From IMG/VR virus record IMGVR_UViG_2645727555_000018, positions 1-18,152 of that record: a stretch of 18,152 nucleotides of DNA; one strand, given 5' to 3'. Position 1 is the stretch's first letter; every line of letters starts with the position of its first letter. The notes below the pieces were generated by a model. It was not told where the DNA came from and searched no databases. It saw only the letters and a program-made list of their open reading frames with translations. This DNA comes from a virus (Duplodnaviria; Heunggongvirae; Uroviricota; Caudoviricetes). Made by a program: the position numbers and the translations under genes. Below, piece by piece: positions 1,915-8,599 of the stretch.

Positions 1915-1970
1915 AAAGGAATCCTTAAACAACATGTTTTCTTGATGGTGTTATTATCGCAATAACACAC
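1915..1970 (-). promoter_or_regulatory. promoter/operator module: extended -10 TGCGATAAT followed by dyad AAACATGTTGTTT, then SD
   Basis: Minus strand reads TTGCGATAATAACACCATCAAGAAAACATGTTGTTTAAGGA. Almost the same string precedes the methyltransferase gene at 16991..17040. Confidence 0.45.
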
Positions 1971-2277
1971 AGGCGAAAAAGGATTTTATTCCGGTGAATG
2001 TGGTTTTGGCAGTGAGTTTTCAGGTTCAGTACCGAGTACACTTTTTACATTATTCTGATTTAGTGGCCGAAAGTGGCTGGTGGGCAGAATAATCCTCTCC
2101 CCGAAAACCTACTGAAATCGATTGTGACCCGTTGGCTGTCTGGCACAATTACGCTGTAGCTGGCATTCAGAGGGAATCCAGCGGTAAGCAAGTCCGCCTG
2201 CACGTGAGCGCCTCTCTTCTTCCCGCACATTACAGGTGGGTAGCCGCAACTCTCCCTCTCGCTATACCGGTACGCCA

Positions 2278-2424
2278 CCGTTCCTGAACCGGCATCGAGC
2301 CTTTTCCCGAAATCCACACAGGCAACTCGACCGTTTCCCTGAAAACCTCCAGCCGTTCCCCGAAGGCAACCCAGCCGTTTCTGTAGCGGGATGCAGCCTT
2401 TTCCCTGTATGGACCGAAGGCTGA
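2278..2424. repeat. array of six imperfect ~22-bp tandem direct repeats (consensus CCGTTYCCYGAA-N7-8-CAG); iteron- or centromere-like
   Basis: Units start at 2278, 2300, 2331, 2353, 2375 and 2397. Three are exactly 22 bp. The period is not a multiple of 3, so the overlapping ORF 2060..2566 is unlikely to be coding. Confidence 0.55.
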
Positions 2425-2460
2425 CCGTAGGGGTGTTACGGGGGATGGAATCAGGAGTTG

Positions 2461-2494
2461 AATAAATACGAAAAAGGAGGCGACACCCCTCCTT
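2461..2494 (-). terminator. intrinsic terminator at the 3' end of the G-poor noncoding segment
   Basis: Stem AAGGAGG/CCTCCTT (2474-2480 / 2488-2494) with 7-nt loop, followed on the minus strand by UUUCGUAUUUAUU. Confidence 0.5.
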
Positions 2495-3335
2495 CCCTCT
2501 CCACTTATACATACCTGGCTTCTTCGCTATACATGTTGTGTTTTCTTCGTGTTTTATCTGTCTCAACCTCTCTATAGGCGTTAATGCTCACTCCTTCCAG
2601 AACGTTCTATACGGCGACTATTTCTGTTGGTGAATTGGGTGTGTTGTTTTCTCTGTCGGTGTATGTGGTTTCGTTAGTTTTGCGGTGGTTCTTCTATGGG
2701 GTGTTCTCGTCGTTTTGGTGATTGTTCTTCTCCGTGTATGGAGTAATGGCAGGTGGGCGAATCCTTTCGTTATTGTGTTTGAGTTGTTTGTCTGGAGTGT
2801 GAAGGGCTTTTGTAGTTATTCGTGTATTGGGTAATGGCGTTTCCCGTGATTGTTCTGTTTCGTGTCTTTTGGGATTGAGAGAATCCTTGCGGTAACAGGC
2901 TTCGTTGGGGTTTCAGTGGTTCAGGTGTTTCTTCGCTGTTTGGGTAATGGCGTGTCGTGGGTATCGCGCGTATGAATATTTTCGGATTGCCTGTGAAAGT
3001 TAGGTTGGTTGTCCGGTAGCCTGGGGAGAAGAGGTGGGTCTTTTCGGTAGCCTGCCATAAAGAGGTTGGTTGTTTTGGGGAATGGCATGTGTGTTATTTA
3101 GTTGTTTTGTTATAGCTGAAAATAAGTTGTTTATATAGTTATGTAACGCAATGGGAGTGATTTTGAGCGTGTGTTTTTGTTGGTAGTGTGTTGGGTCGTC
3201 TGTGGTGAAAATTGGACGCTGTGGCGCTGTCTGCTGCGTAGAATTACGGGTATAAGAAGTGATGTGTGAATACGTCAATTTTTTAGACCAAATCGGGTGA
3301 AAGCGTTGACGTTTCGTTGATCTGTTATTTAGTTG
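2495..3335 (-). ncRNA. candidate long noncoding transcript, C/A-rich and G-poor on the minus strand; function unknown
   Basis: No convincing ORF in any frame. Plus strand is extremely G+T rich (for 2641-2700: G20 T30 C7 A3). Bounded by a degenerate promoter motif at 3336-3370 and the terminator at 2461-2494. Contains internal repeats GGGTAATGGCG (2744, 2830, 2943, 3081) and CGGTAGCCTG (3016, 3045). Confidence 0.25.
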
Positions 3336-3370
3336 TTTTCTTATTGGTATAAACAACGTTAACCTATTGA
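3336..3370 (-). promoter_or_regulatory. degenerate copy of the promoter module (TTGTTTTCTTATTGG half-dyad)
   Basis: Matches the right half of the module (CCAATAAGAAAACAA on the minus strand) but has lost the second dyad arm and has no SD or ORF behind it. Confidence 0.3.
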
Positions 3371-3485
3371 TATTTAAAGGTGTGATTGCAGGTATGGAAG
3401 AAGAGTAGTGGCGATCAACGGATTCTTATAGAAAAGAATCAAATTGTGACCGCCATTATCAACTGATTGATTAAGCTAATTACAC

Positions 3486-4715
3486 TCAAACATCCCCGTT
3501 CTTAATCCACTGCCTGACTTGCTCGTCTTGTGCGACTTCTTTCTCATGTTTGGCAATATACAAGTCTGGCAATAGGGGTGGAGCGAATTCAGGCTCTGTC
3601 GCACGCCACTTTTCATATGCGTCACGCATGGATTTCTCAACATTCCAATGCTCCAACTCTTGGTATTCAATCGGCCAGTTATCCTGCAATCTCTTCACTG
3701 CATTAGCCAGGTCGTATCGGAAGTAAGGATTAAGACCAATGAAATTACCAGCCAGCATGTCATCAACCTCCTTCACTCTGGCAATCTTAGAAAACTTACC
3801 AATAGCAATGTTGAGGTCCCAATCTGACACGAACAACAAAAGTGCTGCAAATGCCAGAAACTTAGCTTCCCCGTATGCTCTGTCGCTAACCGTTTTTGTC
3901 TGAAACTCAATGTAATTGCCCATCACAAAACTAGTAAGCTTACAGGTCTTACTTATCTCGTCCTCCAAATGCGATGGATCGAGAATTGTGCGGTCACGAT
4001 TATTGTTTATGTGTTCTAAGATTACAGCAATGTCTCTATGTGAGACTGAAATTTCACGCAATTGCTGGAGAGTCTTGATGTGAACTCTTAGCACCTCTTT
4101 GTCAATCGCACGCTTCCAAGAAAAACCAGGCACAGTAACCTGAATGGGCGCGAAAGGTAGAATATCAGGAGTTGTCCATGCTAGATATGCATCACGTAAC
4201 CCACTAATATAATAAAGCCAGTCTAAATGCTCGCTTTCTAACCATATTTCAAATGTGGAATCCTTTCGCTTATTGAAGAACCATTCCCTCATCTGCCACA
4301 TTTTTTCTTGAGTAAATATCCCTTCCTGTATGCCGGCACAGACCAGCTTTCGTATTACCTGCGAATACTTTGTTCGATCTTTTGTGAATGAGACAAGGTG
4401 CTGCTTCACCTCAGATGTTAGTCTATCTCCATAGAAATCACATGATGGATGATGGCCTTGACCATCTTCACCGGTAAATCTGAAATGCGCCTTCTTGTGA
4501 TAGCCACCATTCCTAGTGGCTCTAACGAACGAACCACCTCCAACTTTGCAAATGGGGCAGATGATATCGTCACGGGCAATAGCATGAACCGAGCTGTCAT
4601 CTAAATTCTTTAGCGCCAAGTACTGCTCAGGATCGACTTCTTTTTGTAACGATTTTGAAAAAGCGGTATCAGTCATTCCAAGCTCCGAGCAAGGGGTTAT
4701 TTGTTCAATTATCAT
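3486..4715 (-). CDS. hypothetical 396-409 aa protein with N-terminal Cys/His zinc-ribbon-like motif; AT-rich cargo gene
   Basis: Long ORF. Motif CPICK...(29 aa)...HHPSCDF. ATG at 4676 has a GGAG SD, ATG at 4715 has none. GC content visibly lower than neighbours. None of the shared promoter modules upstream. Confidence 0.6.
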   Translation of the reverse strand: MIIEQITPCSELGMTDTAFSKSLQKEVDPEQYLALKNLDDSSVHAIARDDIICPICKVGGGSFVRATRNGGYHKKAHFRFTGEDGQGHHPSCDFYGDRLTSEVKQHLVSFTKDRTKYSQVIRKLVCAGIQEGIFTQEKMWQMREWFFNKRKDSTFEIWLESEHLDWLYYISGLRDAYLAWTTPDILPFAPIQVTVPGFSWKRAIDKEVLRVHIKTLQQLREISVSHRDIAVILEHINNNRDRTILDPSHLEDEISKTCKLTSFVMGNYIEFQTKTVSDRAYGEAKFLAFAALLLFVSDWDLNIAIGKFSKIARVKEVDDMLAGNFIGLNPYFRYDLANAVKRLQDNWPIEYQELEHWNVEKSMRDAYEKWRATEPEFAPPLLPDLYIAKHEKEVAQDEQVRQWIKNGDV

Positions 4716-4846
4716 TCGGAATTATTTACTGTCTCGCCCAGTTTCACGTCATTTTATTCCCTAGTCTAGCTTTTCTAGGGTATACAGCTTATTACAAGCT
4801 CCTCATTATTAACTGTTTCCGTAACTCATTGATCCGCTTATACACT

Positions 4847-5146
4847 CTACCAACACCAGCACTCAAGCCCTTCAACGATCGGCGCACCACAATCAAAATG
4901 TACAGAGTCAAAGCCTACATCAAGTACTTTCTGAATGTTAGCAATCGCGCCTTCGGATATACCATATCGACGCAAGTCGTCTTTCCAGACATCATCCTGT
5001 AACCCGGCGTGGACAATACAACCGCCATCAATTTGTGAAACCCAATCCAGCTCATTGCTTGCGATCATGAATCGGCGAGCATCTTCCTCTGATGTATGAG
5101 ATGAACTGATCAATGCCACCTGGTAGGCTTGGGTAATGTTCAACAT
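4847..5146 (-). CDS. hypothetical protein (about 100 aa)
   Basis: GGAG 9 nt upstream of ATG(5146); dual-dyad promoter module immediately upstream. Confidence 0.5.
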   Translation of the reverse strand: MLNITQAYQVALISSSHTSEEDARRFMIASNELDWVSQIDGGCIVHAGLQDDVWKDDLRRYGISEGAIANIQKVLDVGFDSVHFDCGAPIVEGLECWCW

Positions 5147-5232
5147 TTCAACCACTCCGAAACAATTTGTTTTCTTATGTGGCTTATTATCTCAATCAAC
5201 AAAAGGTAGAAAACAAATTGTTTTAGGGCTTG
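5147..5232 (-). promoter_or_regulatory. dual-dyad promoter module: dyad 1 (5209-5224), extended -10 TGAGATAAT, dyad 2 (5158-5173), then SD
   Basis: Minus strand reads CCCTAAAACAATTTGTTTTCTACCTTTTGTTGATTGAGATAATAAGCCACATAAGAAAACAAATTGTTTCGGAG. It aligns almost base-for-base with 14040..14115. Confidence 0.45.
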
Positions 5233-5254
5233 TGTAAATCAGGAGGGATTGTGT

Positions 5255-5288
5255 CTATATGAAAATGCCCAGCGTGTTGCCGGGCATT
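5255..5288 (-). terminator. metG intrinsic terminator
   Basis: Imperfect stem AATGCCCAGC/GCCGGGCATT followed on the minus strand by UUUUCAUAU, 20 nt past the metG stop. Confidence 0.5.
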
Positions 5289-5307
5289 GCGAACAGAGGT
5301 TGCTTAA

Positions 5308-7341
5308 TTACTTAACCTGGTGGCCAGGTTTAGCACCAGCATCCGGGCTTAACAGGAAGATATCTTTCCCGCCGGGGCCAGCAGCCATCACCATGCCTTC
5401 AGAGATACCGAAGCGCATTTTACGCGGAGCCAGGTTAGCCACCATAATGGTGTGACGACCAATCAGTGCCTGTGGATCTGGATAAGCGGAACGGATGCCT
5501 GAGAAGACATTACGCTTTTCACCACCGAGATCCAGCGTCAGGCGAAGCAGTTTGTCAGAACCTTCGACAAACTCCGCGTTTTCAATCAGCGCTACACGCA
5601 GGTCAACTTTGGCGAAGTCGTCAAAGGTGATGGTTTCCTGAATCGGGTCGTCAGCCAGTGGGCCAGTTACCGGTGCAGCTGTGGCTTTCACTTCTTCTTT
5701 GGATGCTTCCACCAGTGCTTCCACCTGTTTCATATCGATACGGTTATACAGTGCCTTGAACGGATTCACTTTATGGCCCAGCAGCGGTTGCTGGATACCA
5801 TCCCAGGTCAGTTCTGTATTCAGGAATGCTTCTGCACGTTCAGTCAGTTTCGGCAGTACCGGTTTCAGGTACGTCATCAGCACGCGGAACAGGTTAATGC
5901 CCATAGAGCAAATCGCCTGCAGATCGGCATCGCGTCCTTCCTGCTTCGCCACCACCCACGGAGCCTGTTCATCGACATAGCGGTTAGCCAGATCAGCCAG
6001 CGCCATGATTTCACGAATCGCTTTACCAAATTCGCGGCTTTCCCATGCTTCACCAATCACTTCAGCGGCATCAGTAAAGGTTTTGTACAGTTGCGGGTCA
6101 GCCAGTTCGCCTGCCAGCACACCGTCAAAACGCTTATTGATAAAGCCCGCGTTACGGGACGCCAGATTCACCACTTTGTTCACGATATCGGCATTCACGC
6201 GCTGAACGAAATCCTCCAGGTTGAGATCGATATCATCAATGCGCGAAGAGAGTTTCGCAGTGTAGTAGTAACGCAGGCTGTCAGCGTCAAAATGATTCAG
6301 CCAGGTGCTGGCTTTAATAAAGGTGCCGCGAGACTTGGACATCTTCGCACCGTTCACCGTCACATAGCCATGAACAAATAGGTTGGTCGGCTTGCGGAAG
6401 TTGCTGCCTTCCAGCATGGCAGGCCAGAACAGGCTGTGGAAGTAAACGATATCTTTACCGATGAAGTGGTACAGCTCGGCGGTGGAGTCTTTCTTCCAGT
6501 ATTCGTCGAAGCTGGTAGTGTCGCCGCGTTTGTCGCACAGATTCTTGAAGGAACCCATGTAGCCAATCGGTGCGTCCAGCCAGACGTAGAAATATTTGCC
6601 CGGTGCGTTCGGAATTTCAAAACCGAAGTACGGCGCATCGCGGGAGATATCCCACTGTTGCAGGCCAGATTCAAACCACTCCTGCATTTTGTTTGCCACC
6701 TGCTCCTGCAACGCACCGCTGCGGGTCCATGCCTGCAACATTTCGCTGAAAGAGGGCAGATCAAAGAAGAAGTGTTCGGAATCACGCATTACCGGCGTAG
6801 CACCAGAAACTACCGATTTCGGCTCGATCAGTTCAGTCGGGCTGTAAGTCGCGCCGCAGACTTCACAGTTATCGCCGTATTGATCTGGCGCTTTACATTT
6901 AGGACAGGTGCCTTTTACAAAACGGTCCGGCAGGAACATGCCTTTTTCCGGGTCGTACAACTGAGAGATAGTGCGGTTTTTAATAAAACCGTTCTCTTTC
7001 AGGCGAGTATAGATAAGCTCAGACAACTGACGGTTCTCTTCGCTGTGCGTCGAGTGATAGTTGTCATAGCTGATGTTAAAGCCTGCGAAATCAGTCTGGT
7101 GTTCCTGACTCATTTCGCCAATCATCTGCTCCGGTGTGATACCAAGTTGCTGTGCTTTCAGCATGATCGGCGTACCGTGGGCATCGTCGGCACAGATGAA
7201 ATTAACCTCGTGGCCGCGCATTCGCTGGTAACGAACCCAGACATCAGCCTGGATGTGCTCCAGCATATGGCCGAGGTGGATTGAGCCGTTAGCGTACGGC
7301 AGCGCGCACGTCACCAGAATTTTCTTCGCGACTTGGGTCAT
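5308..7341 (-). CDS. metG: methionine--tRNA ligase (677 aa)
   Basis: N-terminus [29 protein letters not shown] with the class I HIGH-type motif (HLGH), the KMSKS motif (GAKMSKSRG) and a zinc-knuckle CPKC...CEVC. ORF extends to 7470 but the conserved start is ATG(7341). Confidence 0.97.
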
Positions 7342-7498
7342 AGTAGGCATTACTTCTTTGTAGTGAAAAGGGGCTTGATAGTAACAAAATGGCCTTATGT
7401 CTGCCATGTGATAACAGCATTTCTCATAAATGATTAAATGTCGCAGCTGGAGTACACTACAAGGCGACAATTGCGCAAATTAAAATAAAGGAGACGGG
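7342..7498. promoter_or_regulatory. divergent metG / apbC promoter region
   Basis: 157-bp AT-rich intergenic spacer between the two divergent start codons; AAGGAG SD precedes the apbC ATG. Confidence 0.5.
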
Positions 7499-8599
7499 AT
7501 GAGCGAGTCCAAATCGCCGGATGCCCTGAGAGCAATGGTAGCCGGTACGCTGGCTAATTTTCAGCACCCAACCCTGAAACACAACCTGACTACGCTTAAA
7601 GCGTTACACCATGTTGCGTTGATGGATGACACACTGCATGTCGAACTAATCATGCCTTTCGTGTGGAATAAGCCTTTTGAAGACCTGAAAGAGCAATGTA
7701 GTGGTGATCTGCTCCGTATCACTGGCGCAAAGGCTATTGACTGGAAGCTGTCGTACAACATTGCCACGCTTAAGCGCGTCAAAAACCAACCAGGCATTAA
7801 TGGTGTTAAGAATATTATCGCCGTAAGCTCAGGCAAGGGCGGTGTAGGCAAATCGTCCACAGCAGTAAACTTGGCACTGGCTTTGGCTGCTGAAGGTGCG
7901 AAAGTTGGTATTTTGGATGCCGATATCTATGGTCCATCAATTCCAACCATGCTGGGCGCGGAAAACCAACGTCCAACCTCACCTGACGGTACTCACATGG
8001 CACCTATCATGTCTCATGGCCTGGCAACCAACTCTATTGGTTATCTGGTCACCGACGACAATGCAATGGTGTGGCGTGGACCGATGGCCAGCAAGGCGCT
8101 GATGCAGATGTTGCAGGAAACTCTATGGCCTGATCTGGACTATCTCGTTCTCGATATGCCGCCGGGCACTGGTGATATTCAGTTGACGCTGGCGCAGAAC
8201 ATTCCTGTAACTGGTGCGGTTGTGGTAACTACGCCGCAAGACATCGCGCTGATCGATGCGAAGAAAGGCATTGTGATGTTCGAAAAAGTCGAAGTGCCGG
8301 TACTAGGTATCGTCGAAAACATGAGTGTGCATATTTGCAGTAACTGCGATCATCACGAGCCAATTTTTGGCACCGGTGGCGCACAGAAACTGGCCGAGAA
8401 ATACAACACGCAGTTGTTAGGCCAAATGCCACTTCATATCTCTCTTCGTGAAGATCTGGATAACGGAACACCAACCGTTATTAGTCGTCCAGATAGCGAA
8501 TTTACGGCTATTTATCGTGACCTCGCAGATCGCGTTGCTGCCCAAATGTATTGGCAAGGTGAAGTAATACCTGGCGAAATCGCATTCCGCGCAGTGTGA
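7499..8599 (+). CDS. apbC: iron-sulfur cluster carrier ATPase ApbC/Mrp
   Basis: P-loop GKGGVGKS, CSNC motif, C-terminal ...GEVIPGEIAFRAV; full-length 366-aa ORF. Confidence 0.95.
   Translation: MSESKSPDALRAMVAGTLANFQHPTLKHNLTTLKALHHVALMDDTLHVELIMPFVWNKPFEDLKEQCSGDLLRITGAKAIDWKLSYNIATLKRVKNQPGINGVKNIIAVSSGKGGVGKSSTAVNLALALAAEGAKVGILDADIYGPSIPTMLGAENQRPTSPDGTHMAPIMSHGLATNSIGYLVTDDNAMVWRGPMASKALMQMLQETLWPDLDYLVLDMPPGTGDIQLTLAQNIPVTGAVVVTTPQDIALIDAKKGIVMFEKVEVPVLGIVENMSVHICSNCDHHEPIFGTGGAQKLAEKYNTQLLGQMPLHISLREDLDNGTPTVISRPDSEFTAIYRDLADRVAAQMYWQGEVIPGEIAFRAV

What the first reader, a model, noticed from the sequence alone, without database searches (positions are those of the whole stretch)
3486..4715. 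AT-rich 409-aa zinc-ribbon protein as cargo without the shared promoter module
It is the largest accessory gene on the left flank and has clearly lower GC than its neighbours. It carries a CPICK...HHPSCDF Cys/His cluster near the N-terminus. Unlike its neighbours it has none of the shared promoter modules, and it sits directly upstream of the noncoding segment and the repeats. I cannot assign it to any family from memory. A compositionally distinct single gene in a phage-like element is a typical signature of a moron, often an anti-phage defence or superinfection-exclusion function.
Basis: inference. Interest (0 to 1): 0.55.

Follow-up and report, generated by a model that had tools for sequence, protein, structure and literature searches.

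The report
Orphan zinc-ribbon cargo gene, defence-island family
This is a real, conserved but dispensable gene sitting in a swap-able slot of an SSU5-type phage-plasmid; it belongs to a small uncharacterised protein family with no match among solved (PDB) or BFVD viral structures. Elsewhere the family sits again and again beside known anti-phage systems, above all Gabija, so it is a good candidate for a new immunity-related protein, though no function has been shown.

Summary
The ORF is real (3486-4715, minus strand). The true start is probably M14 (ATG at 4676, 396 aa). The Cys/His cluster is an invariant CxxC...H-x3-C set. The window is an SSU5/pHCM2-type phage-plasmid, about the same as pECOH89.

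The gene has no Pfam, NCBIfam or PADLOC match. A confident AlphaFold2 model (pLDDT 89.5) matches nothing in PDB or BFVD.

It is not a compositional outlier (43.4% GC; several neighbours are equal). It is not a recent import either: SSU5, pHCM2 and Klebsiella relatives carry syntenic orthologues that have diverged in step with the backbone.

It is dispensable cargo. A sharply bounded 1385-bp cassette (3463-4847) is present in only 36 of about 230-250 E. coli SSU5-like plasmids, and is replaced by other genes or by almost nothing in two plasmids inspected.

Distant homologues (26-33% identity) occur only on temperate or mobile elements and in genomic islands. GajA-like genes lie within five ORFs in 24 of 57 loci. 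That is 7 of 24 lineages, at least four GajA subfamilies and five gene orders. Others lie next to Hachiman, Lamassu-like, Shedu, RT-SLATT, Abi or NACHT genes. The family is absent from 50,697 phage genomes except SSU5-type elements.

Best reading: a novel immunity-related, probably defensive, protein. The mechanism is unknown. A replication-initiator role is rejected.

The parts
3486..4676 (-). Most likely coding sequence of the protein ('X'), 396 aa plus stop. The ORF as listed, and as annotated in RefSeq WP_249518623.1, extends to 4715 (409 aa).
   Evidence: Orthologues and PHROG 12525 start at M14. An ungapped codon alignment with the Kluyvera orthologue from M14 gives dN/dS 0.11.
4623..4676 (-). 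Codons 1-18, carrying the N-terminal motif M-x-x-T-A-[YF]-S...[KR]-E-x-D-x-x-Q. It is among the most conserved stretches (S7, E13, D15 and Q18 are invariant).
   Evidence: Alignment A1. Predicted as two short strands followed by a helix.
4440..4559 (-). Codons 40-79, the CCHC zinc-ribbon-like cluster: C40-P-x-C43 ... H64-F-R-F ... H75-x3-C79.
   Evidence: C40, C43, F65, F67, H75 and C79 are invariant; H64 and R66 are conserved in at least 90% of sequences. Four short beta strands are predicted at residues 48-67. Only weak zinc-ribbon Pfam hits appear, in a few family members.
3726..3863 (-). Codons 272-317: a conserved hydrophobic helix (LLAFxALLLFVSDW) and the loop/strand GNxIGLNP[FY], which is the signature of the C-terminal helical domain.
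   Evidence: A275, L281, N311, G314 and L315 are invariant. pLDDT is 93-98 here. This pattern retrieved 56 genomic and 26 viral loci.
4677..4847 (-). The 171-nt upstream region that travels with the gene inside the cassette. It holds an SD sequence GGAG (4683-4686) and one weak promoter-like site: GAGACA (4735-4730), 16 nt, GATAAT (4713-4708). It has no copy of the shared operator.
   Evidence: The promoter-like site is a consensus match only; the region has fewer such sites than shuffled sequence does.
3463..4847 (.). The exchangeable cassette (1385 bp). Homology with X-less sister plasmids stops at 3462/3463 and resumes at 4848. The DUF5983 stop codon lies at 4847-4849.
   Evidence: BLASTN of the window against pRM9975-1 (L017) and pNT1N28-108k (L018). 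Alignment A2. Annotations.
4847..5155 (-). DUF5983-family gene immediately upstream on the same strand. X may be co-transcribed with it.
   Evidence: Pfam PF19419, E 5e-10. PHROG 5003.
5160..5226 (-). The nearest copy of the shared promoter/operator module: two AAACAAnTTGTTT palindromes flanking a GATAAT -10 element.

Best explanation
X is a dispensable cargo gene occupying a recombination hotspot at the distal end of a small operon of an SSU5-type phage-plasmid. It encodes a roughly 380-400-aa protein of a previously undescribed family. The N-terminal domain carries a CCHC zinc ribbon and an invariant S/E/D/Q motif. A large helical C-terminal domain follows. The predicted fold has no match among solved (PDB) or BFVD viral structures.

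I think it is most likely an immunity-related protein that benefits the resident element and its host by excluding other phages or mobile DNA. It acts as a single polypeptide. The zinc-ribbon domain would recognise invader DNA, DNA ends or a protein, and the helical domain would execute or transmit the response. In other bacteria it appears to work alongside nuclease-helicase systems of the Gabija type.

Shown: the gene is real, is under purifying selection, is dispensable and exchangeable, belongs to a novel family, and is recurrently adjacent to defence systems.

Inferred: any defence activity, and every step of the mechanism.
For: - Real and constrained. dN/dS is 0.11 against the Kluyvera orthologue. 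Motifs are conserved down to 25% identity across Proteobacteria, Cyanobacteria and Bacteroidota.
- Dispensable hotspot cargo. It is in 36 of about 228-251 E. coli SSU5-like plasmids. The same borders are used by other inserts. Frameshifted or truncated alleles exist.
- Defence neighbourhood. GajA-like genes lie within +-5 ORFs in 24 of 57 loci and GajB in 16. PADLOC confirms this with four different GajA models at E values of 1e-190 to 1e-279. Five gene orders are seen, including co-directional gajA-gajB-X and X-gajA-gajB. After dereplication at 70% identity, 7 of 24 lineages have Gabija nearby and 4 more have other defence genes. Two further contigs have Gabija farther off: two genes beyond an RT-SLATT pair in the Patiriisocius contig and 4.4 kb away in a metagenome contig. 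Other neighbours are Hachiman HamAB, LmuB-like genes, Shedu, RT+SLATT, and Abi_2 and NACHT on IncX1 plasmids.
- Temperate or mobile elements only. These include P2-like prophage ends and the lambdoid nin region, where X has 310- and 127-nt gaps around it while neighbouring genes abut. They also include ICEs and integrase islands. Among 50,697 phage genomes only SSU5-type elements carry it.
- No conserved partner gene across the family, so it acts alone.
Against: - There is no experimental evidence and no recognisable effector domain or catalytic motif.
- PADLOC 2023 does not detect it, and DefenseFinder 1.3 apparently does not either.
- The Gabija association is concentrated in alphaproteobacterial islands that share integrase/YhcG modules. 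Part of it may therefore be co-transfer rather than function.
- The clade containing this window never has Gabija nearby.
- In the phage-plasmid the gene lies downstream of an operator-controlled promoter shared by many small genes that look like early or establishment genes. It may therefore be repressed in the resident state.
- One ICE copy lies between ArdC/ParB and DUF736, a region typical of establishment or anti-restriction functions.
Confidence: 0.42

Rival explanations
1. Counter-defence. X is carried by mobile elements to neutralise a host immune system. Gabija or another OLD-family nuclease-helicase system is the obvious candidate. The chromosomal copies next to Gabija would be cognate regulators or immunity factors, comparable to orphan methyltransferases or antitoxin mimics.
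For: Solo copies lie on a phage-plasmid, on IncX1 plasmids and in an ICE next to ArdC. X is linked to Gabija in 7 of 24 lineages, whereas only 56 loci were retrieved from one genome for each of 185,579 species; Gabija is reported in more than 15% of genomes, so most Gabija loci must lack X. The phage-plasmid copy sits downstream of an operator-controlled promoter among small early-like genes. The alternative cassette in pRM9975-1 carries a 61-aa gene with a weak, sub-threshold similarity to the T7 gp5.9 RecBCD inhibitor.
Against: X is absent from all sequenced phages other than SSU5-type phage-plasmids, unlike known anti-defence genes. It is co-directional and adjacent to gajAB in chromosomal islands, and it is also adjacent to Hachiman, Lamassu and other systems. 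It has no structural similarity to any PDB entry, which should include the Gad1-Gabija complexes. It is large for an inhibitor.
Confidence: 0.18
2. Accessory component or regulator of neighbouring defence systems. It would be a zinc-ribbon DNA-binding factor, analogous in role to BrxR/WYL regulators, that tunes or extends nuclease-helicase systems. It would have little activity on its own.
For: X lies next to several unrelated systems, with a strong bias to Gabija, in variable gene orders and with 70-210-nt gaps compatible with operons.
Against: Many lineages, including this window's, have no recognised defence system nearby. No HTH or known regulator domain is detected. The protein is much larger than typical regulators.
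Confidence: 0.15
3. A housekeeping or establishment function of mobile elements unrelated to immunity, for example a DNA-binding factor for entry, recombination or copy control. Defence genes would be mere co-cargo.
For: X often lies at the boundary between the core genes (integrase, YhcG, AlpA, Rep-like) and the cargo of integrative islands. It also lies in the lambdoid nin region among recombination genes and in an ICE near ParB/ArdC.
Against: Most E. coli SSU5-like plasmids do without it and have unrelated genes in its place. The element types carrying it are too diverse to share one housekeeping need. It forms no conserved module with any core gene.
Confidence: 0.17
4. Replication initiator acting on the adjacent non-coding, repeat-bearing segment.
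For: It lies next to a 1.5-kb non-coding segment with repeats and has a zinc ribbon that could bind DNA.
Against: The non-coding segment is retained in sister plasmids that lack X (pRM9975-1 at 95% identity, pNT1N28 at 73%). One study uses separate repB and parB genes as markers of SSU5-type elements. There is no similarity to any Rep family in sequence or structure. Homologues sit in chromosomal islands and in IncX1 plasmids, which are typed by their own IncX1 replicon.
Confidence: 0.02

Closest known systems
RAZR / PD-T7-4 (single-protein abortive-infection system; PMC13017515)
   Same: It is a single polypeptide with a small N-terminal zinc-finger domain, used to sense phage proteins, followed by a helical C-terminal domain. 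It is carried on mobile DNA of enterobacteria.
   Different: The C-terminal domain of RAZR is a DUF4145/HEPN RNase. X matches neither DUF4145 nor any PADLOC model. X has no invariant histidine in its C-terminal half, which a HEPN Rx4-6H motif would require. X is about 150 aa longer and shows no structural match in the PDB. The resemblance is architectural only.
Gabija (GajA OLD-family ATPase-TOPRIM nuclease + GajB UvrD-like helicase)
   Same: It is the commonest neighbour of X homologues, in five gene orders and with at least four GajA subfamilies.
   Different: X is homologous to neither GajA nor GajB. The window and its plasmid relatives show no gajAB next to X. The published 'GajC' is a MazF-like protein that replaces GajA and is unrelated to X.
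Morons and defence hotspots of temperate phages (P2/P4 hotspots, lambdoid nin-region inserts)
   Same: X shows presence/absence polymorphism at fixed borders between otherwise collinear genomes. Unrelated genes alternate in the same slot. Homologues sit at P2-like prophage ends and as a gapped insert in the nin region.
   Different: X shows no compositional deviation and is an old resident of the SSU5 lineage. An independent promoter and terminator have not been demonstrated.
CoiA-type N-terminal zinc finger (CPxC...HFxH...C); recalled from memory, not tested
   Same: It has a similar spacing of a CPxC knuckle, an HF-containing strand and a distal Cys.
   Different: No Pfam hit to CoiA families appears in any of the 49 members scanned. 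X has no PD-(D/E)xK nuclease domain.

Membership tests
Zinc-ribbon / CCHC zinc-binding domain | Two pairs of metal ligands (CxxC plus H/C-x3-C) that are conserved across the family. | tested here: met
   C40, C43, H75 and C79 are invariant in 49 sequences.
Zinc-ribbon / CCHC zinc-binding domain | Short beta-strands between the two ligand knuckles. | tested here: met
   Strands are predicted at 48-51, 54-56, 59-61 and 64-67 in a model with pLDDT 73-90 over this stretch.
Zinc-ribbon / CCHC zinc-binding domain | Actual zinc binding. | not testable with these tools
   This needs metal analysis of purified protein.
Known anti-phage defence families (PADLOC-DB 2.0) | A significant match to a defence-protein HMM. 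| tested here: not met
   The only hit is SP_VI at E 0.007 over 30 residues.
Defence-island gene (guilt by association) | A large fraction of family members lie next to known defence genes, and this holds after dereplication. | tested here: met
   11 of 24 lineages (70% identity clusters) have Gabija, Hachiman, Lamassu-like, Abi/NACHT or RT-SLATT genes within 5 ORFs. No formal background model was run.
Gabija system component | Obligate co-occurrence with gajA and gajB in one locus. | tested here: not met
   There is no gajAB beside X in the window, in SSU5, or in the IncX1, cyanobacterial and Burkholderia clades.
Moron (autonomous lysogenic-conversion gene) | Present or absent between otherwise collinear relatives; not needed for the element. 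| tested here: met
   36 of about 228-251 E. coli plasmids carry it, and the cassette borders are 3463 and 4847.
Moron (autonomous lysogenic-conversion gene) | Its own promoter and terminator. | tested here: inconclusive
   There is one weak promoter-like site and no intrinsic terminator on either side. A module promoter lies one gene upstream.
Moron (autonomous lysogenic-conversion gene) | Base composition that deviates from the element. | tested here: not met
   GC is 43.4% against a window mean of 46.5%, and four neighbouring genes are at 42-45%.
Plasmid/phage replication initiator | Homology to a Rep family, and presence in all members of the replicon group. | tested here: not met
   No Rep hit by sequence or fold. 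The gene is absent from most E. coli relatives, and the two inspected keep the adjacent non-coding DNA.
RAZR / PD-T7-4 | A C-terminal DUF4145/HEPN domain with an Rx4-6H motif. | tested here: not met
   No DUF4145 hit in any member. No invariant His in the C-terminal half.
Gad1-type anti-Gabija protein | Structural similarity to solved Gad1. | tested here: not met

The most novel reading that the evidence does not exclude
X founds a new, structurally novel class of single-protein immune factor that is functionally coupled to Gabija-type nuclease-helicase systems. It could be a sensor, guard or amplifier. Temperate elements such as SSU5-type phage-plasmids would carry it solo, either to arm their hosts or to manipulate host Gabija.
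Probability: 0.25. Interest if true: 0.8.

Novelty: new variant of a known kind. Interest (0 to 1): 0.6.

Why it matters
SSU5/pHCM2-type phage-plasmids are common in clinical E. coli, Salmonella Typhi, Shigella and Klebsiella, and they carry resistance genes. What their variable cargo does to phage susceptibility and plasmid uptake is largely unknown.

This gene gives three things:
- a defined exchange hotspot in these elements;
- a compact orphan family, about 220 clusters at 50% identity among 1.8 billion proteins, with a confident predicted structure unlike any solved one;
- an unreported, recurrent genomic link to Gabija, one of the commonest bacterial immune systems, whose self/non-self discrimination and partners are still debated.

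A simple cloning and phage-challenge experiment, with and without Gabija, would settle whether it is a new defence protein, a Gabija partner or a counter-defence.

Tried and rejected
- Sequence families. Pfam, NCBIfam and PADLOC gave nothing for X. Pfam on all 49 aligned members gave only scattered sub-threshold zinc-ribbon hits. PHROGs gave only family 12525 of unknown function.
- Solved structures by sequence. The single sequence and the profile both found nothing.
- Profile searches. A search of 5.8 billion and another of 1.84 billion proteins found only same-length 'hypothetical' relatives, with no fusions and no annotated domains.
- Conserved partner gene. Upstream genes of about 200-260 aa in Xanthomonas, Patiriisocius and Sphingobium are unrelated to each other. 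A conserved -1 neighbour exists only in one alphaproteobacterial subclade. There are no tandem paralogues.
- Replication-initiator idea. Rejected because X-less sister plasmids keep the non-coding segment.
- Literature. There are no papers on WP_000156234, SSU5_107 or phrog_12525. 'GajC' is a different, MazF-like protein. RAZR is only an architectural analogue.
- RNA scans. Rfam and tRNA scans of the window were empty.
- Not attempted. I considered testing whether X+ plasmids are enriched in Gabija-positive E. coli hosts. The collection offers no protein search and lists too few rows for this.

Full report
**What the window is.** Region 3300-5300 is 100% identical to 110-kb E. coli plasmids such as pEcoFMU073332c. 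Its annotation shows ParB-like partition genes, metG, apbC, an S24 peptidase and many hypothetical genes. Relatives include Salmonella phage SSU5, pHCM2-size Salmonella plasmids and Klebsiella phage-plasmids. The DUF4942 gene at the right of the window is 100% identical to that of pECOH89. So the window comes from an SSU5-type phage-plasmid.

**The observation.** The ORF 3486..4715 (minus strand) is intact and is the largest ORF left of metG. Its product contains CPICK...AHFRF...HHPSCDF.
- The first 13 codons are not conserved in Enterobacter or Salmonella orthologues.
- Homologues and PHROG 12525 start at the second Met.
- A GGAG lies 6 nt before that ATG at 4676.
- The protein is therefore most likely 396 aa.
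- GC is 43.4% against 46.5% for the window. Neighbouring genes at 42.2-44.9% are just as AT-rich, and only metG and apbC (50-51%) stand out. The compositional claim fails.

**The shared module.** The module is real.
- AAACAAnTTGTTT occurs 9 times against 1.6 expected.
- In the seven upstream regions aligned, it sits just after a TGnGATAAT-type -10 element in most of them.
- None lies in the 171 nt before X, but one precedes the DUF5983 gene immediately upstream (5160-5226). No convincing terminator separates the two genes.
- In SSU5 the orthologue follows the preceding gene by 32 nt.
- Autonomous expression is therefore not established.

**The protein.** Pfam, NCBIfam and PADLOC find nothing, and PHROGs gives only an unknown-function family.
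- Homologues number 86-90 clusters in 5.8 billion proteins, and 221 clusters at 50% identity in 1.84 billion. All are about 360-410 aa or fragments, all are 'hypothetical', and none has a Pfam domain or a fusion.
- An alignment of 49 members, down to 25% identity, shows an invariant N-terminal motif (S7, E13, D15, Q18).
- It also shows an invariant CCHC set (C40, C43, H75, C79) around a conserved HFRF strand.
- It further shows a VCxGI...MRxWF helix, a hydrophobic helix LLAFxALLLF, and a GNxIGLNP loop.
- dN/dS against the Kluyvera orthologue is 0.11.
- AlphaFold2 gives a confident model (pLDDT 89.5, pTM 0.81). It has a small beta-rich N-terminal part followed by about 15 helices.
- The family is thus an orphan in both sequence and predicted fold. 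The AlphaFold-database libraries could not be searched.

**Cargo in a hotspot, but an old one.** Megablast of the ORF finds it in only 36 E. coli genomes, all on plasmids and all at least 99% identical.
- Its flanks occur in 228 genomes, and a backbone gene occurs in 251.
- In pRM9975-1 the flanks are 95-97% identical, but 3463-4847 is replaced by a 959-bp segment. That segment encodes an unrelated 186-aa protein and a 61-aa protein.
- In pNT1N28-108k the same interval holds only 230 bp.
- The right border lies at the DUF5983 stop codon (4847-4849; homology resumes at 4848). The left border lies 23 nt after the X stop codon.
- Frameshifted or truncated alleles exist.
- The 1.5-kb non-coding segment is retained without X. 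This, together with the lack of any Rep similarity, rejects a replication-initiator role.
- X is nevertheless not a recent arrival. SSU5_107 is a syntenic orthologue, and its DNA identity to the window (about 65%) equals that of the adjacent backbone. pHCM2-size Salmonella, Enterobacter, Klebsiella, Cronobacter and Serratia plasmids also carry it.

**Where the family lives elsewhere.** Every context examined is a mobile or temperate element or a genomic island. These include:
- IncX1 plasmids, between the dqlB toxin gene and Abi_2 or NACHT genes;
- Pseudomonas P2-like prophage ends, next to umuDC;
- integrase islands in Xanthomonas, Sphingobium, Burkholderia and a flavobacterial metagenome contig;
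- an ICE, between ArdC/ParB and DUF736/relaxase;
- lambdoid prophages, where X sits in the nin region (O, DnaC-like, Ren-like..., X..., NinB, NinG, Q) with 310- and 127-nt gaps around it while the neighbouring genes abut.

A tblastn of 50,697 phage genomes finds X only in SSU5 and two Klebsiella phage-plasmids. It is therefore not a gene of virulent phages.

**The Gabija link.** A scan of one genome for each of 185,579 species retrieved 56 loci.
- I called ORFs and clustered the five neighbours on each side for 57 loci. These were 47 of the 56 scan loci plus 10 fetched earlier.
- The two largest neighbour families occur in 19 and 16 loci. PADLOC identifies them as GajA and GajB. A further group of 5 loci carries another GajA type.
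- Four different GajA models match at E values of 1e-190 to 1e-279.
- Five gene orders occur: X convergent with gajB-gajA; the same with a 387-aa gene in between; gajA-gajB-X; X-gajA-gajB; and X-Shedu-gajBA.
- Other neighbours are Hachiman HamAB directly upstream, and LmuB-like ATPases.
- Two further contigs have Gabija farther off: two genes beyond an RT-SLATT pair next to X in the Patiriisocius contig, and 4.4 kb from X in a metagenome contig.
- After dereplication at 70% identity, 7 of 24 X lineages have a GajA-like gene within five ORFs. Four more have other known defence genes.
- The association sits in three separate branches of the X tree. It is densest in alphaproteobacterial islands that also share integrase and YhcG genes, so some co-transfer is likely. 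The SSU5, IncX1, Burkholderia and cyanobacterial clades lack it.
- No partner gene is conserved across the family.
- The literature search found no description of this link. The published 'GajC' is a MazF-like replacement of GajA.

**Interpretation.** The evidence shows a real, constrained and dispensable cargo gene of a novel family. Its relatives live in defence islands and in the hotspots of temperate elements.
- The mechanism is unknown. There is a zinc ribbon and an invariant acidic/polar N-terminal motif, but no recognisable effector.
- RAZR/PD-T7-4 (zinc finger plus HEPN) is an architectural analogue only.
- Two facts keep counter-defence or establishment roles alive. The first is the position downstream of an operator-controlled promoter among small early-like genes. 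The second is the ICE copy beside ArdC. Absence from virulent phages and the co-directional placement beside gajAB argue against a classic anti-defence gene.
- I put immunity (defence) at about 0.42, a Gabija-type accessory or regulator at 0.15, counter-defence at 0.18, other mobile-element functions at 0.17, and replication at 0.02.

Noticed in passing
window 1936-3462: A 1.5-kb segment with no annotated gene and extreme strand asymmetry (GC skew up to +0.49 and AT skew down to -0.51, so G+T-rich on the + strand). It carries a tandem 31-nt repeat at 3014-3075 and, by eye, four GGTAATGGCG-like motifs spaced about 100-130 bp apart (near 2742, 2832, 2945 and 3082). It is conserved in sister plasmids whether or not X is present (95% in pRM9975-1, 73% in pNT1N28, about 65% in SSU5). 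There is no Rfam hit.
   Followed up: partly
window 539, 1443, 1927, 3120, 5160, 5211, 14095, 17003, 17717: The palindrome AAACAAnTTGTTT occurs 9 times against 1.6 expected. In the seven upstream regions aligned it lies just downstream of a TGnGATAAT-type -10 element in most of them. This suggests a dispersed regulon under one repressor, reminiscent of the C1 operators of phage P1.
   Followed up: partly
window 5308-8599: Host-like metG (methionine-tRNA ligase) and apbC genes are carried on the phage-plasmid at 50-51% GC. They are present in pRM9975-1 but absent from pNT1N28-108k.
   Followed up: no
L017 7679-8637 (pRM9975-1), same slot as window 3463-4847: The alternative cassette encodes a 186-aa protein with hydrophobic stretches and no family match. 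It also encodes a 61-aa protein with a weak, sub-threshold similarity to the T7 gp5.9 RecBCD inhibitor (E 0.006). The 61-aa gene is also present in pNT1N28.
   Followed up: partly
window 3400-3490 (minus strand): Just after the X stop codon, mostly in the conserved flank, the RNA folds into a nested hairpin (-24.5 kcal/mol, z -3.9). It has no U-tract, so it is not a classic intrinsic terminator.
   Followed up: no
L001 20435-26473 (pEcoFMU073332c): This otherwise identical plasmid carries a complete type I restriction-modification system (hsdM, hsdS, hsdR) after the pol III theta gene. The window has other genes at that place, which suggests a second variable cargo site.
   Followed up: no
L013 7189-7959; L050 9054-9938; L034, L038, L039, L041, L046 (position -1): In one alphaproteobacterial subclade X is always preceded, within 0-50 nt, by a conserved gene of 256-294 aa with no Pfam or PADLOC match. 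In L034, L051, L058 and L059 it is followed by a conserved 387-aa gene. These may be lineage-specific partners.
   Followed up: partly
L096 10001-11219; NZ_CP101923/NZ_CP137698 80455-81683: Decayed copies of X exist. One is split into 232 and 188 codons in a lambdoid prophage. Two E. coli plasmids carry a 1-nt-shorter allele annotated as two genes.
   Followed up: no
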